A model generated the notes under the pieces. The model searched no databases, was not told the origin of the DNA, and was given only the letters and a program-made list of their open reading frames with translations. A stretch of DNA of 64,000 bases from Eledone cirrhosa (lineage: Eukaryota). The position numbers and the translations under genes are program-made. Each line of letters starts with the position of its first letter. The stretch's first letter is position 1. The stretch is from assembly GCA_964016885.1 (NCBI GenBank), contig OZ024742.1, positions 345,092,001-345,156,000 on the forward strand. The letters run 5' to 3'. This document shows positions 222 through 64,000 of the stretch, piece after piece.

Positions 222-695
222 TGTGACAATTATTGACACATAGTGCTGGACACATGGTACCATGTGACAACAAGTGCAGAGAGATCACTAGATATAAAGC
301 AATGCCTGTGCCGTGAAGCTTTTATCGCGAGCAAAGGCACTGCACAAAGCCAGTCCCACTCTCTTAACCAAGATGATATTTACCAAAAAGAAGAACAAGT
401 CAACATCATTGGATACCATCAGGGTTGCAGGTGTTATATCAGAGTTTTCCTTCTCCTAGAATTCTGCCTTGACAAAAGCTAAGGGGTCATCTCTCCCGGT
501 GATTTTGGATGGCCATTGAGTCTTAAGAGCTCCTTTGCCCTTTGACAGGTTTTGTTTTTAGTCCTGCAGGATGTCCAAAGTCACCCTCCTCACCAAGAAA
601 CCTTAGTGGGGTTGCCAGTTTAGTCGCCAACGACCCGAACATGGGACGGGTTGTACTGGGATACACGTTACCAGTAGCACCAACTGGTGACCTGA
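222..695 (-). mobile_element. RTE-related non-autonomous retroelement (~610-bp family), copy lacking 3' end
   Basis: Reverse complement of the 5' part of the copy at 30768-31376. Confidence 0.8.
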
Positions 696-737
<42 letters not shown>

Positions 738-891: not shown

Positions 892-970
<79 letters not shown>

Positions 971-971
<1 letters not shown>

Positions 972-1618
972 AAAACAAATAACGAAACGAAATTAAATTT
1001 CGTTTCGTTTGTAACTCACTTTTGTATGACTGACGCTTAAACAATTAAGTTAAAAATGTACATCCACATATGTATACTGAAATACTAGTATGCATATGAA
1101 TACACACACGTGTACATATGTAGATGTACCGAGTTTTTCACTGGACACTTTACTGTGAGTGTTCAGCTATTCTGTATGTAAACACACAGACAAACCGGTT
1201 TTTAGAGTCATACTGGTTTTCGAGGAAACACCTTTCCTCTATTCTCCAGAAAGCCAGACAGGAATATTGGACTAGTTTCGATGTTGTTACATCTCATCAG
1301 CAATATTTACCTATCCTCCGGCCTTTCTAGAGAATCGTAAAAGCACATATCGTTATATGCTTTTTCTATGAAAATTAGTAGTGGGCAGACTAATTTGCAT
1401 AGAGCGTGAGTACGTACCGGTTCAGCGGAGACGATAAAAACAAATAACGAAACGAAATTAAATTTCGTTTCGTTTGTAACTCACTTTTGTATGACTGACG
1501 CTTAAACAATTAGGTTAAAAATGTACATCCACATATGTATACTGAAATACTAGTATGCATACGATTCTCTAGAAAGGCCGGAGGATAGGTAAATATTGCT
1601 GATGAGATGTAACAACAT
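971..1618 (-). mobile_element. Non-coding HHR-containing tandem unit (~465-bp period) with terminal inversion, retrozyme-like
   Basis: 971-1095 recurs at 1436-1560; 1561-1618 is the reverse complement of 1281-1338; HHR at 1263-1307. Confidence 0.7.
1263..1307 (-). ncRNA. Type I hammerhead ribozyme
   Basis: Minus strand reads AATATTG CTGATGA GATGT-AACA-ACATC GAAA CTAG TC CAATATT: canonical core, 7-bp stem I, 5-bp stem II, palindromic ACTAGT stem III, GUC triplet. Confidence 0.9.
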
Positions 1619-1637
1619 TTTAATACTACAACAATTT

Positions 1638-2170
1638 TAATACTACTACACCAAATGACCAGCCCTGTCCACTGTCCAATTGGTCAAGTAGAGACTAAAA
1701 TTGGCACTCCCAAAAATTCTTATTTAGACAAAATGAACCATTTACTCATGGTATTCTCATTAGAAACCCATTATATACTTGTTTAGCAGTAAATTGATTT
1801 ACCATCTGTCATATACTATCCCCTCTTTTTCTTCCTCTATTACTAATATAAATACTTCAATTTTTCTGATTTTATCCAATTTATCCAAAATCTCTGAAGA
1901 AGTGACAACTGATTATACATTTGCTATCGAATACTTGCTAACATTATATGATTACGCAAGCAGCGATACATAGGTATTCCGTCTGTTACAGAAACATATG
2001 TCAATACCTAATAAGTTCCTTTTTAAAAAAAGCACTTTCATTTTATATTCATCCTTTCTACATTTTCTCCGGAATATAATTTATACTCGTTGAGCAAACC
2101 TGCACGTACGCTGTTCATCTCTAACGTAACGATATATTATCACTACATTATTGATAACCTGAAATTTTAT
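1638..2170 (+). repeat. PLE pseudo-LTR, upstream copy
   Basis: Near-identical to 4779-5311 (offset 3141). Confidence 0.92.
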
Positions 2171-2216
2171 TAATCTCCTATACAGTTGAACAACTAATTC
2201 AGCATACGCCTCTAAA

Positions 2217-4548
2217 ATGGAAAGGCACAAATTGGATATGTCGTTAAAAAACATACCTATTCAGGCAAAAAGGGAATATATTCTAGGTATGATACGAAGG
2301 ACCAATGATTTTATTCGACGAATCAGATGGAAGACATTCCATTTTGATAAAAGCCGTATAAACCAAACATCGGATCTTAACAAGGATAAATTTGGATTTA
2401 AATCTTACAAGAACCCACCCTCAAACCCACTTTTGGATGCTTTTGAACAAGACCTAATGGATATGATCATGGAGATCAAATTTACAAAACGGAAGAACAA
2501 TAAACTACAGAATGACATCACGGCACTGCTCAATAATCTAAAAAACGCCAATGGAATTATTGTTAGAGCAGACAAAACATCAAACGTATATACCATGGAT
2601 GTGGACACTTACAATAACTTCATCCTTAAGGAATTGCATAAAAAATACAGGAAAACTAATGAAGCTACACTTAAAAACATCAACAACTCGGCATGTGAAA
2701 TTGTTAAAAAACTTTGTATTGACGATAGAACGCAACCCTTAACACCAGCTATACCATCCTTCAACCTGAAGGACCACAAGGTAAACTTCGATACTAACCC
2801 TAATATTAGACTTATATGCCCCTCTAAATCTGATATAGGCAAAATTAGCAAATATATACTAGACAGAATTATCCCCCAAGTTAAGGTTAAAGTAGAAATT
2901 AAACTATGGGGTAACACTCATGAAGCAATAAGATGGTTTAATAACATTACTGATAAGAAAAAAATCAAAATTTATTCAGTTTGATATTGATGAATATTAT
3001 TCCTCAATTTCACCTGATACTCTACATGAAGCTCTTTCGTTCGCTAAGGATAATTCCGACCTTACGGATGCTGAAATTAAAATTATTATGGAAGCGAGGA
3101 AAACTATAGTTAAATTCGATGATAGCTACTGGGTTCGCAAAGATAGACCTTCTAATTTTGATATCACTATGGGTTCTAATGATTCGGCGGAAGTAACAGA
3201 TCTTGTGGGAATTTATATCACCCACAGATTACAAGGAAAATTCAAGGATCTCCACGGTGGAATCTACCGTGACGATGCGCTCCTATTAGTTAAGCATATG
3301 AATAACCAGAATTTAGAAAGGATGCGTAAAAATATCAGAAAGCTTTTTAAGGAACTAGGATTAAATATTACATTTGAATATAACCTCAAAGAGGTCAATT
3401 TCCTTGATGTTACTTTGAATCTCAATACAGATACGATTAAACCGTTCCATAAACTAAATGAGAACCTTAAATATGTAAATATGAGTTCTAACCATCCACT
3501 CTCTATAATTAAATCCATCCCTAGAAATATTTCTCTTAGAATCTCCCGCCTGTCGTCCAACCAACAAACCTTCAAAGAACATGCCGAATATTATGATGAT
3601 GCACTTAGGAAAGCCGGTCACCTAGATAATATAGAGTATATAGTCGAAGATCACCAAAACACCCAAAATAAATCCCATAGGAGTAGAAACAGCACAGAAT
3701 CACCACCATACATACACTACCGCAATAGACACAATAATAGTCGCACACCACCAAACAGAAGGCGATGTAAGGAGTATATTTGGTACAACCCGGTCTATAA
3801 CAACTCTATTAAAACCAATCTACCCTCAAAATTCTTTCGATTAGTTAAAAAACACTTTCCAACATCACATAAATATAATAAAATCTTAAACCCTAACACT
3901 ATTCGACTTTCATATTCAAACGCCCCTAATATTGAACAACATATAAAAAAGCTTAACGCAAAACGGTTGTATAAACGCCTTCCAACACATAACAATACAC
4001 GTAAAACATTAGCTATAACATCACAAAACAACAAACAACATCCTGTCCTACATAAGCAACCTCATCAACCCATCCATGACAATACAACAACGCAAAACTA
4101 TAATTGCAACTGTGTCCAACCAGGAATGTGTCCGTTGAACAATCAGTGTCTTGAACGCAACATCGTGTACCAATGTACTATCGAATCGGATAGACAGAAG
4201 TGGTACTATGTGGGATCTACAGCCACCTCCTTCAAATCACGCCTTTATAGACATCGTTACTCGATAAAACATGAAAACCAGCGTTATGTAACAACACTCG
4301 CAGACAAGGCTTGGCAGCTGCGTGAAAATAACCAACAATTTCACCTAAAATGGGATATAATAGCGGCTGCCCCCCCCCCCCCCCCCCCATATTCCCATGG
4401 ACAGGAATTTTGTAAATTATGTAATGTAGAATTATTTTGTATTATGAAATCCAAAAACATTTTATTAAATAACAGAATAGAGCGATCGTTATACTGTAAC
4501 CATCGCTTAAAATCTACATTTTCATATTATAAATACTACCAGGATTGA
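2217..4548 (+). pseudogene. PLE reverse transcriptase/GIY-YIG endonuclease, one frameshift near 2960
   Basis: Motifs ADKTSN, FIQFDIDEYYSSI (shifted frame), ITMGS, GIYRDD, NFLDV, IWYNP, CNC-x5-CPLNNQC, NIVY...YYVGST..FKSR and CKLC. The frameshift lies in an A-run. Confidence 0.92.
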
Positions 4549-4778
4549 ACGCCTGTCTCTATCTCCGTTTGATTGTCAAAATAGATATTAACATTCTTTA
4601 TTAGTCTTAATTCTATCAACTCTTCTATTATTTACCTTTTAATATAAACTGCTATAGATAAAATGAGATTTCTGATTTCTTGATTCAATTCCCTAATGCA
4701 TATACCAGCTGGCTACTAGCATTGATGTTATTCAGTAGCAATGGAAATCTCCCCCTTCCCCAATTGACACTTTATAAT

Positions 4779-5303
4779 TAATACTACTACACCAAATGAC
4801 CAGCCCTGTCCACTGTCCAATTGGTCAAGTAGAGATTAAAATTGGCATTCCCAAAAATTCTTATTTAGACAAAATGAACCATTTACTCATGGTATTCTCA
4901 TTAGAAACCCATTATATACTTGTTTAGCAGTAAATTGATTTACCATCTGTCATATACTATCCCCTCTTTTTCTTCCTCTATTACTAATATAAATACTTCA
5001 ATTTTTCTGATTTTATCCAATTTATCCAAAATCTCTGAAGAAGTGACAACTGATTATACATTTGCTATCGAATACTTGCTAACATTATATGATTACGCAA
5101 GCAGCGATACATAGATATTCCGTCTGTTACAGAAACATATGTCAATACCTAATAAGTTCCTTTTTAAAAAAAGCACTTTCATTTTATATTCATCCTTTCT
5201 ACATTTTCTCCGGAATATAATTTATACTCGTTGAGCAAACCTGCACGTACGCTGTTCATCTCTAACGTAACGATATATTATCACTACATTATTGATAACC
5301 TGA

Positions 5304-5311
<8 letters not shown>
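4779..5311 (+). repeat. PLE pseudo-LTR, downstream copy
   Basis: Near-identical to 1638-2170. Confidence 0.92.
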
Positions 5312-5802: not shown

Positions 5803-6026
5803 CACATACATACAATATATATATATATACATACATACAATAAATATATATATACATACATACAATATATATAAATACATACATATATATACATACATAC
5901 AATATATATTTATATATACATATATATGTATATATATATATACATACATACAATATATATATATATATACATACAATATATATATATTTATACATACATA
6001 TATATACATACATACATACATATATT

Positions 6027-6600
6027 CCAGTACAACATGTCTCATGATCGGGTCGTTGGCGACTAAACTGGCAACCCCACCAAGGTTTCTTGGTGAGGAG
6101 GATGACTTTGGACAGCCTGCAGGACTAAAAACAAAAACCTGTCAAAGGGCAAAGGCGCTCTTAAGAGTCAATGGCCATCCAGAATCACCGGGAAAGATGA
6201 CCCCTTAGAGTTTTTCAAGGCAGAATTCTAGGAGAAGGAAAACTCTGATATAACACCTGCAACCCTGATGGTATCCAATGATGTTGACTTGTTCTTCTTT
6301 TTGGTAAATATCATCTTGGTTAAGAGAGTGGGACTGGCTTTGTGCAGTGCCTTTGCTCACTATAAAAGCTTCACGGCACAGGCATTGCTTTATATCTGGA
6401 GATCTCTCTGCACTTGTCATCACATGGTACCATGGGCCCAGCACTATGTGTCAATAATTGTCACAAGTGTAGTGTTTGTACCAGAGTTTTCAAGTCGCTG
6501 GCTGGACTAAAAAGTCACACTCGTTCAACGCATGGGTAGGGGTTCTCTTACATGGGTATAGAGTAGTGGCCGTACTCGAAAACGAGTTCGCAGCCACCAT
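6027..6600 (+). mobile_element. RTE-related non-autonomous retroelement, slightly 5'-truncated
   Basis: Matches 30768-31376 and ends in the stem-loop GTGGCCGTACTCGAAAACGAG..GCAGCCACCAT. Confidence 0.85.
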
Positions 6601-9555: not shown

Positions 9556-10830
9556 CAGGGTGTGGCTTTATTCCTGTTACAAAGTTTTAAAGTAATTTAA
9601 AAATACATTATGTTGCTAATATAACTAATATATTTGTATCAAATCCATGCACTATAACCATATTAACTATTTTTCAGAACATTACTCCATTAACAATTTG
9701 CAAAGTCCATAGAATTGAAAAGAAAGTTCATAATAGAGAAGCATGAAAAAGGCCTGACTCCACCCAAGATATTTAAACTGGGGGAAATTCTTAAGATCAA
9801 TAGAATGTTGATCAAAAGGACAATCTATCGATTTAAGGAAACTTCCTCGATCAAAGGCAGACCTCGATCCGGATGTCTTCGCACCTCAAGAACACCAAAA
9901 CTCATTAAAAGTGTGAGGGAAAAAATAAGGCGTAATCCAAGAATGTCCATGAGAAAAATGGCAGAAGAAGCAGAAACATCGCCGAGAACTATGCGGAGGA
10001 TATGTTGAGATGATCTGGGGATGTCACCCTATAAGTTCCAAAAGAGGGAGCTTCTTTCTGCAGCCAAAATTGAAAAGAGGCTCTCCAGAAGTAAACTGTT
10101 ATTGAACTGTATCAAGGATGGCACGCTGCAAAACATCTTATTTACAGATGAGAAGTTATTCACTGTGCAGCAGTCTCACAATCATCAAAGTGATCGAGTA
10201 CTTGCAAAAAGTCTCAAATCAATTCCTTCAAGTGTAGGAAAAGTGTTCAGAACACAGAAACCAGCATCAGTGATGATTTGGGCAGCCATTTCTGAAAGAG
10301 CTAAGTCTCCTCTGATGTTTGTGCCTCAAGGAGTTAAAATTAACAAAGCACTTTGCATAAAGGATATTTTGGAAGGAGCACTGATGCCATGGTGCATATC
10401 TGTTTATGGCGATGACATTTGGACTCTCCAACAAGATGGAGCGACGAGCCACACTGCTTGCATAACACAACAGTGGTGTAGAGACCATTGTTCTGCATGG
10501 ATCAGTAAGGAAGAGTGGCCTCCCACATCACCAGATCCCAACCCTCTCGATTTTTCGTTATGGCCAATTCTTGAGAGTGAAACCTGCTCTACTCCTAGCC
10601 AAAATATTGAAACTCTAAAATCAAAACTGAATAAAGTATGGGAGAAAATACCCATGGAAACTGTTCGTGCAGTCAGCGAAGACTTTCCTAGAAGACTTCC
10701 AGCGGTGGTGAGAGTTAGAGGAAAGCATTTCGAATAAATTGTTGTGCAGTTGTTTAATAGTATATTACTTACTATTTGTTGAAGTCAGATCTTGAAATAA
10801 ATGTTTTTTTCAAGAACTATTTGCATTTTA
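9556..10830 (+). mobile_element. Tc1/mariner DD37D (maT) DNA transposon, right TIR missing
   Basis: TA|CAGGGTGTGG left end followed by the transposase; no matching right TIR was seen. Confidence 0.85.
9715..10737 (+). pseudogene. DD37D transposase with one in-frame stop (10006-10008)
   Basis: HTH/GRPR-like N-terminus, FTDEK, QQDGA and WPPTSPDPNPLD; 37 residues between the second and third Asp; both ORFs are in the same frame. Confidence 0.92.
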
Positions 10831-15674: not shown

Positions 15675-16967
15675 TTATATACTAGGTTTAAAGCTATGGA
15701 ATGAGTGTCGGAAGCGATGCTGGCACGATGCAAACACCTCCGATTTTTTATTTAGGAGGTTAACATTCGAAAAGATTATAGTATGGGTCTCTATGAGACA
15801 GAGGTTACAAAATTTATTAGGTGGTTTATACGATGAAGTCCTACCTACTACTTCCCATTGAAGTGTATATGTTCTATTCCTAGTTTTCAGATAGTGTATG
15901 TAGCTAGATAGTGAAGTGGAGTTGGTTAGATTGTGTTTTTTAAAAGAGTGGAGGTGCGAGTTGTATCTCGTCTTGAAGCAGTTCGAAGTAGAGCCTATGT
16001 ATGTTTTCGAAGAGTTGTTAGTGTTGACCCTGCAGGAGTAAATGATGTCTTTGATTAAGCAGTTATTACCGAAAGGGCAAATTCTATTTGATCTACAGTT
16101 ACATTTATTTTGGATGTTATCTTGCCGGTTATTATGTGATGTAGAAATCTTGTTGTTATGATTAGTATTAGGGCTATAATGGTTGTCGTTCCTAATGTTA
16201 TTGATGTCATTAGTGTTATTACTATTATTACTATTGCTGTTAGGGTTTGTAGTTATTATGTTGTTCTGAAAGTTTACCTCCTGCTGTGTTTTAATTTGTT
16301 GAAAATAAGTATTAATCTTTCTTTTATTACTACTAGCTATATGGTATGCTATATTAGGTGTGATACAGTAAGAGATTTTAATGGTGTTTTTATTCATAAG
16401 ATTATGGTATTTGTGGCCAGATGGGAAGTTTTTTTCTAGGATTGAGTACGGGTGGCTATTATTCTTCTTATTATTTTTCCTCATGGCCATATTGTGAGAA
16501 ATAATGCTGTAACTATGTGATTTTATAGGTAAGAATTCAATCCCATTATTATGGCCTGATTTAGCTACTGGCTGATTATAGTATTGTGAATTATTGTTAA
16601 ATATGATTTCGTTATAAGATAGATTAGAGATTCTATTAGATATTCCTTTAGTGATTGAGTTTAATATGGATTTAGGGTGGTTAGACTTGGTATGTACATA
16701 AATTAGTTTTTCGTTAGGTTTATGAAAGGGTGTATATATTTTAGAGTCTAGGTAAAGGATAGCATCAAGGAAGTTAACATTTTTAGTGTTTTTGTCTAAG
16801 GTGATACTTAAGTTAACATTTTTGAAAATTTTATGTAATAGTTTCCTAGTTCTTTCTATATTAAATTGTTTATAGTCTATAAGGAGTAGTGCATCATCGC
16901 GGTATAAATCACCATTGAGGTATGGTAGGTCCTTATGAATTTCATTTAGTAGATATAGGCCCACCAA
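15675..16967 (-). pseudogene. PLE RT C-terminal half plus GIY-YIG endonuclease
   Basis: Motifs LYRDD, NFLD, SNHP, CNC..CP..C, IIY...TYIGSTSNCFKTR and CNLC. Confidence 0.9.
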
Positions 16968-17103
16968 ATACTATAATCAGGCATTAGCTAAATCAGGCCA
17001 TATTAATGGGATTGAATTCCTACCTATAAAATCACATAGTTACAGCATTATTTCTCACAATATGGCCATGAGGAAAAATAATAAGAAGAATAATAGCCAC
17101 CCT

Positions 17104-17324: not shown

Positions 17325-17930
17325 AAAAAAGAAAATTTCGCTCTACATGGTTGAATACAATAAATGTAATCTGAATTTTTCGAATATTAATAATAACATT
17401 CGATTCGTTTGCAATTTTGCAAACAAGCCTCAATTTTATAGCCATGTCAGTAGAATGAACATTTCATTCTTGCTCTTGTGTTGGCATGCGAACAGAACTG
17501 CAGACACTAATGTTTCTGGGTATCACCCTTCATCAGTACAGCTCACTGTTCACCTGCCAAACTGTCAGAGCTAGTGAAAATATATGCTATTTTCAAAAAT
17601 ACACAGTGACTGATCAGCCTGATTTGCATATTAGCACACTGGCTGATCAGTCAGATCAGCATATTAGCAGATCCACTGATCAGCCAGATTTGCATATCAG
17701 CAGACTGGCCAGTCAGTTTCCTGTATACGAGCGATAAATGGCCGGCTTTGCCAAATTCAAATAAAAAAGAAAATTTCGCTCTACATGGCTGAATACAATA
17801 AATGTAATCTGAGTTTTTCGAATATTAATAATAACATTCGATTCGTTTGCAATTTTGCAAACAAGCCTCAATTTTATAGCCATGTCAGTATTGAATGTTA
17901 TTATTAATATTCGAAAAACTCAGATTACAT
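17325..17930. repeat. Non-coding unit with ~125-bp direct terminal repeats (period about 438) and terminal inversion
   Basis: 17325-17451 recurs at 17763-17890; about 17892-17930 is inverted; internal CTGATCAG/ATTTGCAT subrepeats. Confidence 0.75.
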
Positions 17931-25086: not shown

Positions 25087-28000
25087 TGATGGCTGCCCCC
25101 TCGTTATCGAGTATGGCCATTGCACGAGGAGAGAAAAAAAATATTAATAAATAAATAAAAAAATAAAAAAAATAAAAAAAATATATATATATATATATAC
25201 ACACATACATATATATATATACACTCATATATATATACATACACACATATACATTAATAACAATAATAATAATAATAATAATAACAACAATAATAATGTA
25301 CAAATACATATATATATATATACACACACGTACACACATAAACACATCTATACACACACACACGATAGCAACCAACAGCGCTACGATCGAATGTGGCTTT
25401 TTAGCCCAGCCAATGATCTAAAATGTCTTGCACAGAGTCGGCAACCAAAACATTTACTGGGAATAGTCGGCTGTGGTTTGAGTTCGTGTACTTTTGCAGG
25501 TCGCTTGAGCCCTCCTGCTGATTTACATTCTCTACCACATGTTTGGCAAGCATGATGAGTAGCATCTCCAACAGCAGCCTGGTAGTCAACCACTGGTCTT
25601 ACTTTATGACTGCGAAGATGACTTTCGAGTCCAGCTTTGCTTAGGCAGAGTCTCGCACAGACGCTGCATGTCAGCACCATAGGAGGACCCTCGCCGTCTG
25701 GAAGTGCAACAGTAATGCCCTTCCTCACATCCCGCTTTACTTTCTCGTATGCGATTCGAGATGCCTCAAAGGAAACTTTTCCCTCATATACAGTATTTCT
25801 CCATTTATTACGATCAGCAGCAATATTTTCCCATGTATCAGCAGAGATGTTAGCGTCTTTGAAAGAGGCTTTCAAGGAATCCTTATACTTCTTTTTTGGT
25901 TTATGTGGCGGTCGTTTTTCTTTAACCAACTCTCCATAAAAGAGTTGTTTTGGTATTCTAGAATCCTTCATCCTGGCAAGGTGACCACTCCAACGGAGTC
26001 GTTGCTTAAGCACAAGAGCTTCTATACTGTCACACATAGAATAGAGCTTTCCAAAATCTCGACATCACTGATGAGGTCCCTCCAGTGAACGCCATGGATC
26101 CGTCTGAGACACATCTGAAGGAAACGCTCCAATTGCTTAAGGTGGTGTCGATATGTGACCCAGGTCTCTCAGGCATAAAGAAGACAAGAGAGCACACATG
26201 GCTTGTACACCTTTACCTTTGTCCTCCTGCATATGCCTCGCCGACTCCAGAGTCGCCTTTCTAGCTTTCCGAAAGCATCACTTGCTTTCCTAATCCTAAG
26301 TGAGATTTCACTGTCAAGGTTGCTGTATCAATTGACAGTGCTTCCCAGGTAGACAAACTGATCAACCACTCCAAGTCGTTTACCATACACATAGATATTT
26401 GGTTCAGTGTACTGCTTACCTGGGGCAGGTTGGTACATGACAACGGTTTTTTGGAGACTGACAGTCAATCCTAGGGCAGTGCAAGCGTCAGAAAATGCAT
26501 TCAAAATGTGCTGCATATCACTCTCTGTGTGCGCTACAAGATCGCAATCATCTGCATACAAGAGGTCTCTTATGATTGATGTACATACTTTTGTCTTTGC
26601 AGCAAAGCGGCTGATGTTAAATATGCTGCCTGAGGTTCGATATCGGATGTAAACACCATGCTCGCAATTCCTGAATGCAATACAGAAAACCATTGCAAAG
26701 TATATGGCAAACAGCGTCGGTGCTGGAATATCCCCCTTTTTCACTCCATTTTTTACTGAGATAGGCTCCGACATGTTACCTCCGACATTAACCCAAGCCT
26801 TCATGTCGTCATGGAAAGACTTAACTAAAGCAAGGCACTTATCAGGGCAACCAAGTTTCTGGAGAACCTTCCATAATGCATCTCTGTTAACAGTATCAAA
26901 GCTTTTGTCAGATCGACTAAAACCTAATACAGATCCAAGCCTTGTTCCATGCACTTCTCCTGGAGTGTCTAGCTAAGAAGGTCATATCAGTAGTGCCGCG
27001 TCCAGCACGAAAACCAGATTGACTTTCAGGAAGAACACAATCTGCAATGTGTGTCAGCAGACGGTCCAGAAGCACCCTACATAAAACTTTCCCTACGACA
27101 GAAAGCAATGATATACCTCTGTAGTTCCCACAATCATTCCTGTTACCCTTTCCCTTGTACAAACCACCATTACTGCACCTCTCCAGTCAGGTACGGATTC
27201 ATTAGCCCATATCCTGCCAAACAAAGAGTGAAGATGTTGCAAGAGTCTCTCACCACCATATTGTAGGAGCTCAGCATGTATGCCATCCATACCTGGAGAT
27301 CTTCTGCTGTTTAGCTTCGAGATAGCCACTGCAACCTCCACAAGCGTCGGAGGTTCTGTGAGAGCTACTTTCACAGGACTTTCTGGAATGAGATTGAGGA
27401 AATCTTCACTGACAACAGACGGCTGATTCAAATATCATCTAAGTGCTCTCGCCACCTTCGTAGAATTCCTTGTGAGTCACGAAGAAGTTCTTTGCCATCC
27501 TTGCTGCGAAGCGGTGTCACCAGAGAAGAAGACGGTCCATAAACCTCACGCAAGAGACTGTACAACTGCTTTGTGTTATTGGAATCTGACGCAGTTTGTA
27601 TCTCACCAGCCTTCTCACTCCACCACTGATCCTTCATCTGAGAAAGACTCCGCCTAACACGTGATTTTACATCCTTGAGTTCCTCATGCAACGTATTCCT
27701 CTCCTGTGGTTTTGCCGTCAAGTAGCGTGACAGAGCACGCCTCTTATCAGCCAACAAGTCTTCTATATGTACATCATTCTCATTAAACCAGTCCTGATGT
27801 TTTCTCTGCACCAATCCCAGAACACGCATGCCTACATCATAAACCGACATTTTAAGGGTCGGCCAATCCTCACCAAGATCTGCATCCTGCATCTCTTCTT
27901 CCAGTGTCCTCTTCACATTTTTATCCTTAAGACGAGCAGCATTCAATCTTTTGGGCAGGGCAACACCAGGAGCCCGGATTTTACGTTTAGTGATTAGTTT

Positions 28001-28552
28001 CACTTTTGCGCGTGCCAGGCGGTGGTCCGTCCAGCACTCAGCTCCACGAAGAGCACGAACACACTGCACATCCTGTCTGTCACGCATCCTGACTAGGACG
28101 TAGTACAAAAGATGCCATTCCTTAGATGCAGGATACATTCATGTGGTCTTGAATTTGTTCTTTTGTTGGAACATGGGTGTTGGTAACACACAGATCCAGC
28201 TCCTCACACATCTGCAGCAGGATCATACCATTGTTGTTACACTTTCCCACCCCATGCCTTCCGATTACATTCCATGTGTTAAAATCCCTACCCACTCTAG
28301 CAATAAAGTCACCAAGCACGATAACTTTGTCTGCCTGGGGGATATTTTTTAAACACCTTTCAAGGCATGGTAAAAGGACACTTTTCCTTCTTCGACAGAA
28401 TTCATAGTTGGAGCATACACACTCACCAGGGTCGCATATCTTCATTTGTCCAGCGGAATTTTCATGGACATAAGACGCTCACTAATCCCTACTGTGAATT
28501 CTTCTAATTTATTCACAAGTACAGTCTTAACAGCAAATCGTACTCCAGCCTC
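25087..28552 (-). mobile_element. RTE-clade LINE, 5'-truncated and frameshifted
   Basis: APE remnants (VLGDF.ARVG, WTDH), RT (NYRGISLL, QSGFR, LLYADD), RLRWSGH, C-terminal C2H2 motifs, 3' stem-loop then (ATGT)n. Confidence 0.92.
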
Positions 28553-28782: not shown

Positions 28783-28819
<37 letters not shown>

Positions 28820-29403
28820 GGAAAAAATGAAACGAAATTTCATTTCCCACTCTTAGTACGGCTGTTACTTAAATATAAGTATGTACACGTACATACATAT
28901 ATGTATACAGACGTACAGTAGTATGTATATATGTATACATACATGCACACATATATATATGTACGTATGGATTCACCGAACATTTATTATAATGCTCGGT
29001 GTGTTTGTAAACAAACATCCCGTATTAAGCCGTAGTGTCTAGCAACCATCGTTGCTCGTTTGTTCAATACTGACAAAGGAACGCTGTACTAGTTTCAAGC
29101 TTATTAGCTATTTATTATAATAAATGTTCGGTGAATCCATACGTCCATACATATATGTGTGCATGTATATATATATATATACATACTACTGTACGTCTGT
29201 ATACATATATGTATGTACGTGTACATACTTATATTTAAGTAACAGCCGTACTAAGAGTGAGAAATGAAATTTCGTTTCATTTTTTCCGTTTATCGTTTTC
29301 GGTGCACCCGGCTGATTAACCCACTCGATATGCAAATTGGGCTACTCAGCCGTTAATATGCATAAGGTAAGTATATAAGTTCAACAATCTGGCAGGAAGG
29401 TAT

Positions 29404-29446
29404 ACGTTGCTGACGATAGCTAATAAGCTTGAAACTAGTACAGCGT
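29404..29446 (+). ncRNA. Type I hammerhead ribozyme
   Basis: ACGTTG CTGACGA TAGCT-AATA-AGCTT GAAA CTAG TA CAGCGT. Confidence 0.88.
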
Positions 29447-29830
29447 TCCTTTGACAGTGTTGAACAAACGAGCAACAATGGTTGCTAGACACTACGGCTT
29501 AATACGGGATGTTTGTTTACAAACACACCGAGCATTATAATACATGTTCGGTGAATCCATACGTACATATATATATATATATGTGCATGTATGTATATAT
29601 ATATATACATACTACTGTACGTCTGTATACATATATGTATGTACGTGTACATACTTATATTTAAGTAACAGCCGTACTAAGAGTGGGAAATGAAATTTCG
29701 TTTCATTTGTTCCGTTTATCGTTTTCGGTGCACCCGGCCGATTAACCCGCTCGATTTGCAAATTGGGCTACTCAGCCGTTAATATGCATAAGGTAAGTAT
29801 ATACGTTCAACAATCTGGCAGGAAAGGTAT

Positions 29831-29873
29831 ACGTTGCTGACGATAGCTAATAAGCTTGAAACTAGTACAGCGT
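29831..29873 (+). ncRNA. Type I hammerhead ribozyme, tandem copy
   Basis: Identical to 29404-29446, 427 nt downstream. Confidence 0.88.
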
Positions 29874-30099
29874 TCCTTTGTCAGTGTTGAACAAACGAGC
29901 AACGATGGTTGCTAGACACTACGGCTTAATACGGGATGTTTGTTTACAAACACACCGAGCATTATAATAAATGTTCGGTGAATCAATACGTACATATATA
30001 TATATGTGTGCATATATGTATATATATATACATAGTACTGTACGTCTGTATACATATATGTATGTACGTGTACATACTTATATATATATATATATATAT

Positions 30100-45862: not shown

Positions 45863-47750
45863 GAAAGACTGAAATAGATAAAATGTTATCAAAAATAGTG
45901 TATCTATCTAAACATCCATAATATTAAAGATATTAATTATATTTACTAATCCTAGGTATTAAATAATTCTAGGAATTAAATGTGATAGATAGCGGATGCG
46001 GTTAAAAGAAGTAGTGAGGTTAAAGATAACTTTAGGTAAAGTGAGCTGCAAGAGGGAAATAAAATTATGAAATTCTTTGTAGTAAATATCTAATTATAGG
46101 TTAACTAAATAAAATTTTTTTTTTTTTAATTAATTATAATAATTTGTAAAATATAAGAGTGAGGTATATATTAATTAAGTTTATAATATTTGAAGCTTTT
46201 TCTAATTCTATGATTGCATGATATAATTAACTCCTGTCGCTTATTTAATAGGATATCATTAGATTTCATGATTTCAAATAGTTCTTGGGAGCATAACCTA
46301 CACTCATATCTGCTATTTTGATAAGCTATTTTGATAAGCATGCTCCAGGTGAGGTTGTAATCAATATCCTTTTTCTATAATTATTAATTGCTTCAGCCAA
46401 GGAGGTTGTATTAGCTAATGCGGCATTTTTTAAATTATGTTTGTGGGTATTAAATCTTACTTTAAATTGGTTAGACGTAGCTCCTATATAGGATTGAGCG
46501 GAGTCCTTAGTACTAATTACACATTTATAGACTATGTTATTAATAAGACAATTTCCCTTTAATGGGCAATTTCTTTTGATTCTACAGTTACAGCCATTCG
46601 TAAATATTGTGTCAGGAGAGTTAATTGTGTTATCTATAGTGGTATTAGTGTTACTATTTTCATTAATGTATGGTTTAGAATGGGTTGTAATTAGATTAGT
46701 ATGGTTAGACAGGTTGTTGGTGGGTGATAGTTTAGGGGATGTGGAGCTAGTAGAGTTCTGTTTGTTTTGGAGATTATAAGTAAAAACGTGTGTGTAGTTT
46801 ACGGGACCTATTATAGGTGAAGAAGAAGGTGGTTTGTTTTGGTTTACTCTAGTATTATTCTGGTTGGTTTGATGTGTTGGTGGTATATTTATGTTTTTTT
46901 TACACTTATATTCTGTTGTATATTCTTGGTAGTGGAGTAGGAAAATTTGACAGCAGATCTATTTAAAATTTGTTATTATTTATGGTTTGGTGGGAGGTTT
47001 TTCTCTAGGATAGCAAAGAATTTTTTCGGGATATGGTCTTTAATCTGTACATTAAATGGAGCATTATACCAAGTAACCCGTCTATTAAGGTTTCGATATT
47101 GTTTCTTATATTTATATAATGTATCGGGAGGTTTACTGAGAGAGTTACTATTAGTGATTTTATTATATATAGGTTTAGTTAGATTAATTGATGTTTTAGT
47201 CTGATTACTAGGAATTTTGTTAGTTATGTTGTAACCATATGTAAGAGTATTAGGGTGAATGGTTTTTTGAAAGTCATTATCTTTTATGTGAGAAATTAAG
47301 TTTTGGGTTGGTGTTTTTAGGTGTAGTATGAGTGGCATTTAGGTGTGGGTTTTTCATTTGGTGTTTGTTTGTAATATTAGGTTGTATGTTTGAAATATTA
47401 TTGGTGCAAGGTATATAGACTAATTTGTTCTTATGGCCGCTTCTAGCTAAAGCTTCATTTTAAAATGGCGCGTTTTTATCGAATACATCATGATTTGATG
47501 AAAGGTTAGAGATTCTGAGTGAGATATTATATGTTAGGTTTTTAAGGATAGATCTAGGCTGATTAGATTGTGAGTGTATATAATGTAAGTTTTGGTTAGG
47601 TTTATGGTAAGGTTGGTAGATACCTGTAGATAGGTCCATAGTTATATCTAGGAAATTGACTATTTTACTGGTGTTTTCAAATGTAATAGTTAGATTATAA
47701 TAGTCTTTGAGGAAAGTTATAATAAGTTTTTTTTATATCTTTCAATTTCT
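45200..47750 (-). mobile_element. Penelope-like element, 5'-truncated and decayed
   Basis: Hand translation gives VNFLDITMDL, VTWYNAPFN and CNCRIKRNCPLKGNC..IVY..SYIGATSNQFKVR; terminal HHR; ends at (TA)n. Confidence 0.88.
45248..45392 (-). ncRNA. Type I hammerhead ribozyme with 106-nt stem II insertion
   Basis: Minus strand reads TTCATCATTT CTGAAGA TGGCATATATA...TATATATCCCA GAAA CGATCG TA AAATGATGAA; 10-bp stem I; palindromic ACGATCGT. Confidence 0.82.
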
Positions 47751-48310: not shown

Positions 48311-49369
48311 CATCTTTCTTTATTTGCCACAGGGGCGTACAAAAATGGGACATTACAATACGTGACGGCGGGGGTTTTACATAAAAATAACATTAATAAA
48401 TAACAATAAACTATATATAATAAAATAACAATTGAAATCCCCAATAGGGGGGAACGTTACTGCAGAGTTGTTTTACACCCCGTGGATAGAACAACCCTCA
48501 ACACCAGGAACACGTTTTGTAGGTGTTCCTGTCTTCCCTCTGTTTATCCTCCTCAACCTACAGGTTTATATACAGAGAAGGCCCATTCACTCGGCCCATT
48601 TTCGCCACATTCACCCACATTTCAGCGAATTTACTGGGGTGTAGCACCTCTCTCTCCACTCTCACCTTCCTTCTGAAGTGATATTTAAAGAAGGGGATAA
48701 ATTGTTGTCCGGAGAGAAAGGTGCTTACCCTCAGTCCTTTTAACCTCGTCCACCATATACCCTCTTTCGCCATAGCCACCAGACAGAGGAAAACCACCTC
48801 TCCTTCGTTCTTAAATGAAGGCGGCGGGGTGATCCTCACGATGGACTCGGCTGACAACTGGATGCTTCCCACACATGACAGCTGTTCGACACAATTCCAC
48901 AGGTCGGTCACCCCTGGGCACTGAACAATTGCGTGCAGAACGGTTTCGATGTCCTGCTCGCATCTTGGACAGGTCCTTTTGGCAGGATCTCTGTAGATTT
49001 TGTCTCGAATTGGTAGAGCTCCTCGGTAGCATTGCCTGGCCAGAGAAATCTGGATGTTATCCATAGGCCCTGGACGGAAAGTCCTCCAGAACAGACTGGT
49101 CAGTTCGTCCTCATTGATGCCTAGAGTTTTCCCGAGAACGTCGCCGCACTTACCCTTCACTAATCCCCTATAGAATGTCGAAGTGGAGTCTCCGCTGATT
49201 GCCGCTTCCGCTTGGTAGAGGGCTGTGAGCGCCTGTAGGCACTCAAGGTGCCAGGCACACATTTTCGGTCTTCGCTTCACCCAGGACTGCAGCTCTGTTA
49301 GTGAGACGAGTTGTGGAAGAGCTTGTCTCACAAACGACAGCCACACCGGTTCATTGGTCAGGAATACCT
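48311..49369 (-). mobile_element. Tx1/L1-like LINE, 5'-truncated copy
   Basis: C-terminal CPRC..ETVLHAIVQC; (GATA)n on both sides. Confidence 0.9.
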
Positions 49370-49371
49370 GG

Positions 49372-49404
<33 letters not shown>

Positions 49405-52400
49405 TGTTTCTTTATTAGCCACAGGGGCACAAAAGAAGGGGACAAATACAAAGGGGGAAGTTTACATACAATAAAAACGTGTAAAATGTTATCACAAATG
49501 CAATTTAAAAAGTTAGTCGATTTTCCCCCAATAGGGAGAGACAGTTCATATGGGTAACACATACCCACGAAAAAATGTGCAACCATCAACTCCAGGAGTA
49601 CGAAGAGTTTGTACTCCTTTCCTCTCCTCTCCTTTTCCTCAACCTACAGGCTGATATAGAGAGAAGGCCCATTCACTCGGGCCATTCTCGCCACTTTCAC
49701 CCACCTTTCATAAAACTTGCTGGGGTGCAGCACCTCTCTCTCCATCCTGATTCTTCTTCCAAAGTGGAATTTGAAAAAAAGAACCAGTTGTTGGCCGGAG
49801 AGAAAGGTGTCTGACCTCAGCCCTTTCAACCTTGTCCACCATGCAACCTCTTTCGCCATAGCTATCACACAAAGGAAAATCGCCTCTCCTTCGTTTTTGA
49901 AGTAGGGTGGCGGTTTGATCATGACAATGGACTCAGTGGTCAACCGGATTGGTCCCACCCGCGACAATAGTAGTTCTACATAGCCCCACAGGTCAGTGAC
50001 GCCCGGGCGGTGTATGAATGCGTGCGCGACGGTTTCTTCGTTATGCACGCACCTTGGAAAGATCTTTTTTGCAGGGTCCCTGCACGGGCTCCCATGTCTG
50101 TAGAGCTTGTCTCGAACTGGTAGAGCTCCTTGGAAGCACTGCCAGGCCAGGGACTTTTGGAAGTTGTCCATCGGTCCCGGGCGGAAGGTCCTACCAAACA
50201 GACTGGCCAGTTCATCTTCCTCTACGCCTAGAGTTTCACCGAGCGCGTGGTCGCACTTGCTGCGGATCAACCCTCTATAGAATGACGAAGTGGAGTCTCC
50301 ACTGATCGTCGGGTCCGCCTGCCAGAGGGCTGTGAGCGCCTGAGCACATTCGATGTGCCAGTCGCCCATTTTCCTCGATCTTTGCTTGACCCAAGACTGC
50401 AGCTCGGTGAGCGAGACGAGTCGTGGGAAGGCTCGCCTCACGAACGGGGGCCTCACCGGTTGTCCGGTGAGGAATACGTAGAGATCCCGCAGCCTGAGCG
50501 CGTGCTTGCGCATCGTCAACCACGGCATCCCCAGCCCTCCGTTACAAGGGTGTTGGCAGCAGATGGATTTCTCACCAAAGGAGCCCGCCTCTTCCAAAGG
50601 AATTGGAAGAGCGCGCGTTCCATTTTGCCGAGCCTTTTGGCTGGACAAGGCCCGACGGTCAAGCGGTAGTAGATGGCGGACGCTATAAAAGTGTTCGCCA
50701 CCTCCGCTCGACCTATCAAGGATAGTTTGCACTCGGCCCACTTCTGGGTGAGTGCAAACACCTTGGCCGTCACTTCGTTCCAGTTCTTCTCCACCTGGAG
50801 GTCCGGACCAAACCAGACCCCGAACATCTTTACCGGTCCTCCCATCCAGCGTCCGACGACGCCATCGGAAGGCATCGGTTTGCCTCTTCACAATCCGAGT
50901 TGCAAACCGATGGATTTGTCCCGGTTCAGCTTCGCTCCTGTGAAACTTTCGTATTCCTTCAGTAAGGTGCCGACTTCCTCGATTTGCGAGGCGCTCGACA
51001 GCATTACTTTAAACGTCGTCGGCGTAGGCCGACGCCGCTTTCCGCTGTACCGGTTCCAGAGCGATGCCCTGCAATAGCTTCAACTTCCGCAGTAGTGGCT
51101 CGAGAGTCAGTACGTACAGAAGGGAGAAGAGAGGGCATCCCTGTCGAATGGATCGCGTAATATGGAACGGCTCCGAGAGGTAGCCGTTCACCTTCACCCT
51201 TGAGCAGATGTTGGTGTTGTGCATTGCAGCAATCCAGCCCCTGAACACGAGTCGAACCCTGCCGCCTCGAGTACCGCATCCAGGTAACGATGGTCAACCC
51301 TATCGTAAGCCTTAGACTGATCCAAGTTGATCAGGGCCCCACCGAAGCCGGGTTTACACCCTACCCTCACTATGATGTATCGCATGAGGTGGAGGTTGTC
51401 GTGTATGGACCTGGTCGGGATTGCGCATGTCTGCGCTTCTCCCACCAGGTTCTCGACGACAAGCGCCAACCTCTTTGCCAACACCTTGGCCAAAATCTGT
51501 AACTCTGTGTTTAGCAGAATGATGGGCCGGAAGTTGCCTATGTCATCCCCCTTATTCTCGTCCTTCCTGATTAGTGTGACTACGCCCCCGGTTACAGAAC
51601 TGGGAATTCTCCCGTTCTGTTGCCAGTTGCAGTAGACCGCTTCCAGGAGACCGGAGAATAAGTCCGGCATTGCTACGTAAAATTCGTAGGGTAGACCGTC
51701 GAGACAGGAGATTTGCGTTTGCCGCATTGGCCCAGCGCGTCCCCTATCTCAGCGACTGAAATCGGCTTTTCGCAGAACTTTGCCTCGCTGTCCGAGAGTC
51801 GAGGTAGGCCGTCGAGGTATGGACCGAAATCCAGAGCCCCTCCCGGCGCGCCTCCCCGCCCGAACAGTTGAAAAGTGCCGCTGAAAGGCCGCACACATCT
51901 GCTTCGGCTCACGTATCACGCGTCCGTTTTGGTCCTTCAAAGACCGAATCGTGGACTTGTTGCCACTTTTTGCCTCCGTCAGTCGGGCCCAGCTAACAGC
52001 TTTGGCTCCCTCGTTTCCGAGAGCACGTATTTTGCTTCTGACAACGCAGCCCTCGTGCTTTGCGTCGAAGAACTGGTCCAAGGCCGTTCTCGTTGCTAGC
52101 ACGCTGGCTACGTTGCCACTTCTAATTGCCTCTTCTACTTTATCTACCAGTTCCTTCTCGGTTCTATTTCTATCTAACGCTAATTCTTTACTAAAAACTA
52201 ACGAGTCTAATCTAACTGCCTTCTTGAGAGAGTACCACCATCTTTGTTGACAATGGCCCTGTCAAGTGCTGTTTAACAAAAGTGCTAATCCGTCTACTGT
52301 AGGCTTTGCTTGTCGTTAACGACAAGTTTAGCTTCCAGTAGCCGGGTCCTTGTCTATGGGTTCTATCAAGGTTGGTCATGCAGGTCACTAGTTTGTGATC

Positions 52401-52668
52401 TGAATAGGCAACCATGAACATTTGTGGACAGCTTAACATGCCCCTATCCTTATTTCTAACTAGAACCCTATCTAGGTACGATCTAGATGTTCCGCTGCGA
52501 TTAGTCCACGTACACAGTGGCACAGTCGGAAAATCTAGTCGAGATCTATCGGCCAGGTCAAATCGGTCGATTAACTGTTTGAGGCTGTTACACCCCCCTT
52601 TATCGGGACATGCTCCCACATAGTCCCAACATGCATCTAGGATTCCATTCCAGTCCCCCACTAAAAGC
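49405..52668 (-). mobile_element. Tx1/L1-like LINE, ORF2 from mid-APE to 3' end, frameshifted
   Basis: GDWN, SYLDR, SDH, GYWKLN, NFRPI.LLN, RQGCPL, AYADD and C-terminal region. Confidence 0.92.
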
Positions 52669-57372: not shown

Positions 57373-57379
57373 ATTAAGA

Positions 57380-57380
57380 G

Positions 57381-57444
<64 letters not shown>

Positions 57445-57445
57445 T

Positions 57446-57492
<47 letters not shown>
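57380..57492. repeat. (GATA)n microsatellite between LINE copies
   Basis: Directly visible. Confidence 0.97.
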
Positions 57493-57493
<1 letters not shown>

Positions 57494-57509
57494 TGTAAAG
57501 AAATAGATA

Positions 57510-58406
57510 TGTTTCTTTTATTTGCCACCAGGGCATCAAAAGTGGGACAAGTACAATGGGGGGAGTTTACAAAACAAGGCGTCCTCAATAAGGAGGAGGC
57601 AATAACAATATATAAAAATAAAATAAAATATAACAAAAAATAAAATTTATAACAAAGTCCTCAATAGAGAGGAGGCGCCTTGGGGGGTCGCACACACCCC
57701 CGAAAAAAATGTCCAACCCTTCTCCTCAGGAGCACAGAGAAGGGGTGCTCCCTTGGTCTTTCATCTTCCTCACCTATAGTCTGATGTAGAGTGAAGGCCC
57801 ATTCACACGGGCCATTCTCGCCACTTTCACCCATCTTTCATAGAAACGGCTGGGGTGCAGCACCTCTCTCTCCATCCTGATCCTTCTTCCGAAATGATAT
57901 CGGAAGAAACGGACCAGTTGTTGGCCAGAGAGAAAGGTGTCTGACCTCAGTCCTTTCAGACGCGTCCACCATACAACCTCTTTCGCCATGGCTATTACGC
58001 ACAGAAACACCGCCTCTCCTTCGTTTTTGAAGAGGGGAGGCGGCTTGATCGTTACAATAGACTCGGTGGTCAACCGGATCGGTCCCACCCTTGACAGCAG
58101 TTGTTCGACATAGCCCCACAGATCGGCAATGCCCGAGCAGTGTACCAATGCGTGTGCAACGGTTTCCTCGTCGCACACGCATCTGGGACAGACCTTTTTC
58201 GATGGGTCCCTACCCGGGCGCCCGTGTCTGTAGAGCCTTTCTCGAACGGGCAGAGCCCTTCTGTAGCATTGCCAGGCCAGGGACCTCTGGAAGTTATCCA
58301 TGGGTCCCGGGCTGAATGTCCTACCGAACAGGTTGGCCAGTTCGTCTTCCTCCATGCCTAGGGCTTCTCCGAGGGCGTCGTCGCACCTGCTAACCACCAG
58401 CCCTCT
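57510..58406 (-). mobile_element. Tx1/L1-like LINE, 5'-truncated, with 19-bp TSD
   Basis: ATATGTAAAGAAATAGATA at 57491-57509 and 58407-58425. Confidence 0.9.
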
Positions 58407-58435
58407 ATATGTAAAGAAATAGATAGATAGATAAA

Positions 58436-63475: not shown

Positions 63476-64000
63476 GTAAGTATGTATGTATACGTACATA
63501 CATATATGTATACAGACGTACAGTAGTATGTATATATATACATACATGCACATATATATATATGTACGTATGGGTTTACCGAACATTTATTATAATGTTC
63601 GGTTTGTATGTAAGCAAACAAACAGCCCGAATTACGCCGTACAATGTTCAGGCAACCATCGTCGTCTTTTTTTCCCTTCATCTGGCAGGAAGGTATACGA
63701 TGCTGACGATAGCTAATAAGCTTGAAACTAGTACATCGTTCCTGTGTCAGTGTTGAACAAAAAGGTGACGATGGTTGCCTGAACGCTGTACGGCGTAATT
63801 CGGGCTGTTTGTTTGTTTACAAACAAACCGAACATTATAATAAATGTTCGGTAAACCCATATGTAGATATATGTATATATATATATATATATATGTGTGC
63901 ATGTATGTATATATATACATACATCTGTACGTCTGTATACATATATGTATGTACGTATACATACATACTTATATTTAAGTATCAGCCGTACTAAGAGTGA
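63476..64000 (+). mobile_element. Diverged copy of the 427-bp retrozyme-like family with 5' inversion
   Basis: Homologous to 29385-29685; 63476-63665 is inverted. Confidence 0.82.
63697..63739 (+). ncRNA. Type I hammerhead ribozyme
   Basis: ACGATG CTGACGA TAGCT-AATA-AGCTT GAAA CTAG TA CATCGT. Confidence 0.9.

What the first reader, a model, noticed from the sequence alone, without database searches (positions are those of the whole stretch)
971..1618. Second, distantly related ~465-bp HHR unit with the same architecture
A minus-strand canonical HHR (GAAA CTAG TC) lies in a 1.3-mer tandem plus inversion. It shares ordered landmarks with the 427-bp family: GAAA..AATTTCGTTTC hairpin, TTTATCGT..CG.TG...CCGG, ATGCAAATT, then an HHR with ACTAGT. 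Two diverged families keeping this layout suggest an old lineage of non-coding ribozyme retroelements. A near-intact PLE begins about 20 bp after the inverted arm.
Basis: partly seen in the sequence, partly recalled or inferred. Interest (0 to 1): 0.75.

Follow-up and report, generated by a model that had tools for sequence, protein, structure and literature searches.

The report
Hammerhead retrozyme with Penelope insertion footprint
This is one young copy of a 465-base non-coding repeat that occurs thousands of times in this animal genome, carries a predicted self-cutting RNA motif and is related along its whole length to a 426-base sister repeat; both belong to a known kind (retrozymes), and their back-to-back insertions with two fixed ends suggest that a Penelope-type jumping-gene enzyme likely copies them, probably from small RNA circles.

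Summary
Observation confirmed. Window 969-1561 (minus) is 1.28 copies of a 465-bp unit with a type I hammerhead; 1560-1618 is a 59-bp inverted arm. The unit is collinear with the 426-bp unit (z=15, 0 of 1000 shuffles; z=10.7 without hammerhead and TA-rich part), and 7 of 18 hammerhead pairs change on both sides. The genome holds 9,266 matches to this family's hammerhead. It is a non-LTR retrozyme, a known kind. Stem III is the short palindromic type, so it likely cleaves as a dimer. Of 42 arms from 26 position-sampled insertions, 41 end at one of two fixed sites about 70 nt apart, and 15 of 16 two-armed insertions use one of each. The sister family has homologous ends, and the neighbouring Hydra-clade Penelope element follows the same rule (35 of 37). 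The ATGCAAAT landmark matches the host's U6/MRP upstream box, but its spacing to TATA is 5 nt short. The neighbouring element shows no homology to the unit, and the junction recurs in 0 of 60 loci, so it is not shown to be the partner. 'Old lineage', cleavage, transcription and circles are untested. This scan noted the same system earlier on other DNA of this genome.

The parts
969..1561 (-). Main arm of the insertion: 1.28 copies of the 465-bp retrozyme unit A, truncated at its 5' end; its 3' end (E1, ...TTTGTTTTTAT) runs into a (TA)n/(TACA)n repeat
969..1433 (-). One complete 465-bp unit (unit position p = 1434 minus window coordinate)
1247..1339 (-). Type I hammerhead: bulged stem I, core CUGAUGA 1300-1294, 5-bp stem II, GAAA 1279-1276, palindromic ACUAGU stem III 1276-1271, predicted cleavage after GUC at 1270
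1393..1400 (-). ATGCAAAT box; matches the box at -76 to -78 of host U6 and RNase MRP genes; likely promoter element; also pairs in an RNA hairpin
1353..1359 (-). TATA-like CATATAA, 41 nt from the start of the box (host Pol III genes: 46-48)
1037..1047 (-). Second fixed family end E2 (unit 387-397), in a small CUUA-loop-UAAG hairpin; not used as an end in this copy; repeated at 1502-1512
981..1009 (-). Tail hairpin between E2 and E1, ending 12 nt before E1; repeated at 1446-1474
1560..1618 (+). Inverted second arm, unit positions 95-153; stops just before GAAA, so its hammerhead is incomplete and it does not reach E2
1612..1650 (.). Junction with a 17-bp microduplication joining the short arm to the 5' end of the PLE
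1637..5311 (+). Neighbouring Hydra-clade Penelope-like element: pLTRs 1637-2170 and 4778-5311 (3 differences in 534 nt), ORF 2217-4548 with a frameshift near 2958, 3' end in (TA)n; probably a separate insertion
28814..30086 (.). Sister family B (426 bp): two-armed insertion with ends E1 (426) and E2 (about 366-370); hammerheads at 29410 and 29837 (+)
63481..64000 (.). Diverged B-family copy, hammerhead at 63703 (+), cut by the window end

Best explanation
The unit is a non-coding retrozyme that is likely transcribed from a built-in promoter, is predicted to cut itself (probably as a dimer) into monomers that likely circularise, and is likely pasted into TA repeats by a borrowed Penelope-type (probably Hydra-clade) enzyme that starts copying at two fixed internal sites, one for each end of the DNA break. 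Shown by sequence: hammerhead fold with covariation; thousands of copies; tandem arrays; TA targets; two fixed 3' ends, homologous between families A and B; scattered 5' ends; back-to-back arms that pair one E1 with one E2; the same layout in an autonomous Hydra element. Inferred: transcription from the ATGCAAAT/TATA block (about 55%), self-cleavage (about 80%), circles as template (about 60%), PLE-type reverse transcription (about 90%), both arms made from one RNA molecule (about 65%), Hydra rather than another PLE clade (about 60%). This copy has only one whole hammerhead, so it probably cannot release a full monomer and is a dead-end product.
For: Homology of A and B: global z=15.3, 0 of 1000 shuffles; z=10.7 without hammerhead and TA-rich part. 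Hammerhead: 7 of 18 pairs change on both sides across 14 hand-picked variants; 91% of cells paired against 33-48% for slid controls; core invariant except N7. Abundance: 19,515 matches to the shared pattern and 9,266 to the A pattern, 0 for both reversed controls. Ends: in all 26 A insertions holding the first 100 listed matches, 23 of 42 arms end at E1 (464-465, one read as 1), 18 at E2 (391-397), 1 elsewhere; 40 of 42 run into TA repeats; 15 of 16 two-armed insertions pair E1 with E2 and none pairs like with like (about 3e-5 if each arm chose its end freely, by hand). Family B: 6 of 8 two-armed among 24 loci; its ends align with A's. Hydra PLE: 35 of 37 resolved two-armed insertions among 60 loci pair end 2170 with about 2063. 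Two internal RT start sites bounding the 'tail' were shown in vitro for a Poseidon PLE (PMC11167929). Tandem/inverted arms, tails and (TA)n preference are PLE and Hydra traits (PMC8557442). One 20-unit insertion has no variable column across both arms and shares three clustered A>G changes in a hairpin. The circular monomer folds at z=-9.5 (40 shuffles). A profile from 4 host Pol III genes scores the box in A, B, B2 and C above 399-400 of 400 shuffles, but not the pLTR.
Against: No RNA evidence was obtained; cleavage, circles and start sites are untested. In the preprint read, 8 of 9 predicted Xenopus retrozyme dimers did not cleave in vitro. No autonomous partner was identified: A and B do not align to the adjacent pLTR or its tail better than shuffles, and the other Hydra ends seen by eye were not similar. 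Tails are 58-75 nt against the 30-40 nt usual for PLEs. This copy itself breaks the rule (second arm ends at 153), as do two arms in the selected young set (409 and 45). Other arrays are heterogeneous or show higher-order patterns, which fits linear multimer templates or later DNA-level change. A>G excess is weak and inconsistent: 20 v 8 (p=0.036) in the position-sampled A set, 3 v 7 in young A, 16 v 19 in B. Promoter: box-to-TATA spacing is 41-43 against 46-48 in host genes; T-runs are not depleted; the U1/U2 profile was only marginal and peaked elsewhere in A and B; the box was chosen after seeing it in the units. In the Poseidon assay start sites did not differ between strands and hammerhead cleavage was dispensable.
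Confidence: 0.8

Rival explanations
1. The same PLE-type enzyme copies linear multimeric read-through transcripts of tandem arrays; neither hammerhead cleavage nor circles are needed, and the hammerhead is carried along or only trims transcripts.
For: Cleavage was dispensable for insertion in vitro in a Poseidon PLE. Several arrays have unit-to-unit variation and period-2 patterns. Two-armed layout and fixed ends do not need a circle: the autonomous Hydra element shows them too. Stem III is weak as a monomer (+5.9 kcal/mol to close).
Against: Compensatory changes show selection on the hammerhead. A 20-unit, two-armed insertion without variation and with shared clustered A>G changes is most simply one template read repeatedly. 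Circles are shown for coral, mussel and axolotl retrozymes (PMC7229834).
Confidence: 0.25
2. Window 969-5311 is one chimeric insertion: the enzyme of the neighbouring Hydra element copied its own RNA and jumped onto retrozyme RNA, which would make this family the mobilising partner.
For: The short arm joins the PLE 5' end directly through a microduplication without TA repeat; the rest of the arm is missing; both outer ends are 3' ends in TA; both parts look similarly young (1 difference in 128 nt, 3 in 534 nt).
Against: 0 of 60 loci of this PLE family have a retrozyme arm joined to their 5' end. The PLE family was not found beside A or B in 70 retrozyme loci other than this one. The composite has two long-tail ends, against the pairing rule. 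No tail homology. Two insertions in one TA repeat followed by a deletion explain the junction.
Confidence: 0.15
3. The unit is the detached terminal repeat (pLTR) of an autonomous PLE not sampled here, or a satellite spread at DNA level.
For: Xenopus retrozymes are related to pLTRs; truncated PLE copies leave similar two-armed footprints.
Against: Arrays of up to 32 head-to-tail units without ORF. Hydra ORF fragments near A or B copies are other, separate insertions. Fixed strand-specific 3' ends with scattered 5' ends are not expected from DNA-level amplification. An ancestral pLTR origin remains possible.
Confidence: 0.1

Closest known systems
Metazoan non-LTR retrozymes (Cervera and de la Pena 2020, PMC7229834: parts 2-3 of 6, Discussion and passages read; Li, Clavereau and Pollet 2026, bioRxiv 10.64898/2026.07.22.740005: parts 1-3 of 5 read, through the Discussion)
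   Same: Non-coding tandem units of a few hundred bp, one type I hammerhead each, low GC, thousands of copies, several families per genome, stable predicted circle, PLEs in the same genome.
   Different: The unit is slightly above the 150-450 bp of the first paper (within 51-972 of the second). The parts read do not describe fixed paired ends, two-armed inversions, TA targeting or a promoter. Expression and cleavage are shown there, not here.
Newt/axolotl satellite 2 (axolotl data in PMC7229834; snRNA-type promoter of newt satellite 2 seen only as a citation in PMC2220036, the original paper not held)
   Same: Minimal stem III with palindromic loop, dimer-type cleavage expected; two families in one genome, one with a U-U at the base of stem II as in family B; an internal small-RNA-type promoter.
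   Different: The newt promoter is cited as Pol II snRNA type; here the box matches host U6/MRP (Pol III) genes while the spacing does not. No sequence comparison was possible.
Hydra-clade Penelope-like elements (Craig et al. 2021, PMC8557442: section 11, passages and supplement passages read) and Poseidon PAc (Frangieh et al. 2024, PMC11167929: parts 1-2 of 4 read)
   Same: Partial tandems, inverted 5'-truncated arm, optional tail between two RT start sites, (TA)n insertion, hammerhead upstream of the ends.
   Different: No ORF; tail 58-75 nt; strict one-of-each pairing of ends across the two arms, whereas PAc showed no strand difference in vitro; no sequence homology to the adjacent Hydra pLTR.

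Membership tests
Non-LTR retrozyme | Short non-coding unit in tandem repeats, many copies | tested here: met
   465-bp unit, arrays of 16-32 units, 9,266 hammerhead matches; no Pfam-type ORF (one search lists only repeat-derived frames ending at 1044)
Non-LTR retrozyme | Type I hammerhead in each unit with intact core | tested here: met
   Rfam gave no match at gathering score
Non-LTR retrozyme | No LTR, PBS or PPT; low GC | tested here: inconclusive
   Insertions are tandem/inverted arms without terminal direct repeats, GC about 36%; PBS and PPT were not searched for
Non-LTR retrozyme | At least two consecutive complete hammerheads (active copy by Li et al.) | tested here: not met
   This copy has one complete hammerhead; the criterion is met by other copies of the family
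Non-LTR retrozyme | Self-cleavage and circular RNA in vivo | not testable with these tools
   Needs bench work or raw RNA reads
Type I hammerhead, dimer-type | Minimal stem III with palindromic loop | tested here: met
   ACUAGU invariant in 14 of 14 aligned variants, which were selected by a pattern that contains it; monomer closure +5.9, duplex -4.8 kcal/mol
Penelope-like element (autonomous) | RT plus GIY-YIG ORF | tested here: not met
   The unit has none; the neighbour at 1637-5311 has one with a frameshift
PLE-mobilised element | Inverted truncated arm, optional tail, two internal 3' ends, AT-rich target | tested here: met
PLE-mobilised element | Homology to the pLTR of a partner PLE | tested here: inconclusive
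   Not met for the adjacent family; other PLE families only partly sampled
Hydra clade (neighbouring PLE) | RWK, DKT, CxCx5C, CxxC and CxH motifs, C-terminal endonuclease, (TA)n target | tested here: met
   Motifs read against the definition; close by eye to Hydra-1_Obim; no tree built; Pfam gave no hit
U6-type (Pol III type 3) promoter of this host | ATGC(A/T)AAT box 46-48 nt upstream of TATA | tested here: inconclusive
   Box matches (0-1 of 400 shuffles), spacing 41-43 does not

The most novel reading that the evidence does not exclude
A self-contained RNA-circle parasite. Each unit carries a host U6-like promoter box inside the circle. A dimeric Hydra-type Penelope enzyme starts on one circle at two hairpin-marked sites about 70 nt apart, one per end of a break in a TA repeat, and copies it round and round in both directions, which restores the promoter upstream of the ribozyme. 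Families A and B have kept this whole plan (box, ribozyme, both start sites) through about 25% divergence.
Probability: 0.35. Interest if true: 0.7.

Novelty: new member of a known kind. Interest (0 to 1): 0.42.

Why it matters
How animal retrozymes are transcribed and written into genomes is proposed in the papers read (PLE enzymes, circular templates) but not shown. Here two diverged families keep the same two start sites, and an autonomous Hydra element obeys the same one-of-each rule. That gives exact nucleotides for an in vitro test of PLE mobilisation and of whether one RNA feeds both arms. The class itself is known, and this scan has already noted the same features on other DNA of this genome, so this locus adds confirmation and a family-to-family comparison rather than a new system.

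Tried and rejected
Rfam scan of the window: no match. Sequencing runs: no RNA holder listed. The six different or overlapping runs laid (X1-X6 minus none; X1, X4, X5, X6; X2, X3, X6) were contigs of unknown kind, so they say nothing on expression. Two low-depth unit-length contigs in runs of organisms B and C (96-98% alike) may be relatives or carry-over and were not used. Metagenome pattern scan: 35 of 35 hits were chance, with no BLAST match and stem I of 0-3 pairs. U1/U2 promoter profile: marginal (4-9 of 150 shuffles) and best sites elsewhere in A and B. Pol III terminator avoidance: no T-run depletion. General A-to-I signature: not consistent across sets. Adjacent PLE as parent or partner: no homology, junction not recurrent. 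L1-type twin priming: rejected because both arms end at fixed sites and their 5' ends are not contiguous. A genome-wide survey of Hydra families was not achieved, so the partner is open. Literature searches returned no paper describing paired fixed ends or a U6-like box in retrozymes, or retrozymes in cephalopods; most subscription papers, three named primary papers and the preprint's supplements were not available, so this is not proof of absence.

Full report
Observation. Window 969-1561 holds 1.28 copies of a 465-bp unit on the minus strand, with its 3' end in a TA repeat, followed by a 59-bp inverted arm at 1560-1618. The unit contains a type I hammerhead: core CUGAUGA at 1300, a 5-bp stem II, GAAA, then CUAG UC, with a long bulged stem I that folds at z=-4.2 (0 of 200 shuffles). 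Stem III is only the palindrome ACUAGU. Closing it within one molecule costs 5.9 kcal/mol, while two copies pair at -4.8. A review passage links such stems to dimer cleavage (PMC6765202), and the axolotl retrozymes behave so (PMC7229834). Rfam gave no hit.

Relation to the 426-bp family. Placed in register at their 3' ends, the two units align end to end: 298 identities in 398 aligned columns, z=15.3, 0 of 1000 dinucleotide shuffles. Without the hammerhead and the TA-rich hairpin z is still 10.7, and all five segments pass in global mode. Across 14 variants that I picked to span both families, 7 of 18 hammerhead pairs change on both sides and the core is invariant except N7. These rows are related, so the shuffle control overstates significance; the slid controls (33-48% paired against 91%) agree. 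The age of the split could not be tested.

Abundance. The shared hammerhead pattern has 19,515 matches in the 3.0-Gb genome and the A pattern 9,266, with 0 for the reversed controls. Six other loci are identical to this copy over 341 nt. Arrays reach 32 units. Earlier notes call the host a cephalopod; I did not test that.

Insertion footprint. I took all 26 A insertions that hold the first 100 listed matches. Of 42 arms found by BLAST, 23 end at unit position 464-465 (E1), 18 at 391-397 (E2) and one elsewhere; 40 run into TA repeats; 5' ends are scattered. Sixteen insertions have two back-to-back arms: 15 pair E1 with E2 and none pairs like with like. Four more have second arms under 45 nt, seen by eye; three fit the rule and one has an atypical end. 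In 24 B loci, 6 of 8 two-armed insertions pair 426 with about 370, and two have one irregular end. The A and B ends fall on aligned columns. E2 lies in a small hairpin kept in A, B and B2, and a larger hairpin ends 11-12 nt before E1. For the neighbouring PLE family I fetched 60 loci from the first part of the list of 596 exact ends. Twenty-one are single-armed, 35 pair that end with a second end about 107 nt upstream, one has two equal ends, one is irregular and two ran off the fetched stretch. This is the PLE 'tail', which in a Poseidon element corresponds to two internal RT start sites (PMC11167929); Hydra elements prefer (TA)n (PMC8557442). The 3' ends lie 227-301 nt downstream of the predicted cut, so copying is inferred to start internally, not at the ribozyme end.

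Template. One insertion of 20 units has no variable column in either arm and shares three A>G changes clustered in the ATGCAAAT hairpin. This fits one edited RNA, probably a circle, read many times. Against this, other arrays vary between units, and A>G excess appears only in one of three sets (20 v 8, 3 v 7, 16 v 19). Circular monomers fold far better than shuffles (z -9.5, -6.1; 40 shuffles). Circles remain inferred.

Promoter. Three other U6-like copies lack it, as do the U1 and U2 upstream regions examined. A profile from those four genes finds the box in A, B, B2 and a third family C above 399-400 of 400 shuffles, but not in the pLTR. A TATA-like element follows at 41-43 nt rather than 46-48, T-runs are not avoided, and both motifs also form RNA hairpins, so the promoter is plausible but unproven. 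A small-RNA-type promoter is cited for newt satellite 2 (PMC2220036; primary paper not seen).

The neighbouring PLE. It is a Hydra-clade element by its motifs, with one frameshift. It is joined to the short arm through a 17-bp microduplication. It does not align to A or B better than shuffles, was not found beside A or B in other loci, and none of its 60 sampled loci repeats the junction. Two insertions into one TA repeat plus a deletion is more likely than a chimera, which I put at about 15%.

Verdict. A real, young, abundant non-LTR retrozyme, homologous to the 426-bp family: a new member of a known kind. What the papers read do not describe is the one-of-each pairing of two fixed ends, shared with an autonomous Hydra element, and the U6-like box. 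Earlier notes of this scan report both on other DNA of this genome; I had the ends and the box before reading them and tested them further here. Interest 0.42.

Noticed in passing
window 17326-17930: Third retrozyme family C (439-bp unit, hammerhead at 17536 minus, 33-bp triple repeat with ATGCAAAT boxes, two ends about 30-40 nt apart; 3,643 candidates in the genome). Only weakly similar to A and B (z 2-4).
   Followed up: partly
window 1894-2010 and 5035-5150: Hammerhead-like motif in the Hydra pLTR: CUGAAGA, a possible stem II with a large insertion, GAAA, palindromic ACAUAUGU, UC. The stem after the cut pairs with a segment inside the insertion. Conserved in 20 loci, but the fold is not better than shuffles (z=-1.1).
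   Followed up: partly
L006:1-1210: A 468-bp relative (B2) of family B, tandem and inverted, next to an A insertion.
   Followed up: partly
L185+L186 (G000:C1:30831600-30840870): 20-unit two-armed A insertion with no variation and three shared A>G changes that destroy the ATGCAAAT box.
   Followed up: partly
L091-L153: Host small-RNA promoters: U1/U2 have TCAGT at about -57 plus a TATA-like element; U6 and RNase MRP have ATGC(A/T)AAT at about -77 plus TATA. A TATA in Pol II snRNA genes is unusual by recalled knowledge.
   Followed up: partly
window 11571, 41183 (minus), 42125: Further hammerhead motifs, each in AT-rich sequence; the one at 11571 lies about 170 nt before a TA junction and looks like a PLE end.
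   Followed up: no
window 15675-16970 and 46180-47693 (both minus): Fragments of two other Hydra-type PLE families (31-49% amino-acid identity to the neighbour).
   Followed up: partly
window 10009-10737, 26328-28138, 48558-60170: A transposase-like frame (recalled resemblance to Tc1/mariner, no Pfam hit) and LINE-type RT and zf-RVT fragments.
   Followed up: no
window 222-696 and 6018-6465: Two inverted copies of another repeat flank the whole retrozyme-PLE block; the left copy ends in the TA repeat.
   Followed up: no
L193:7768-8273: An A insertion in a (CAT)n repeat instead of (TA)n.
   Followed up: no
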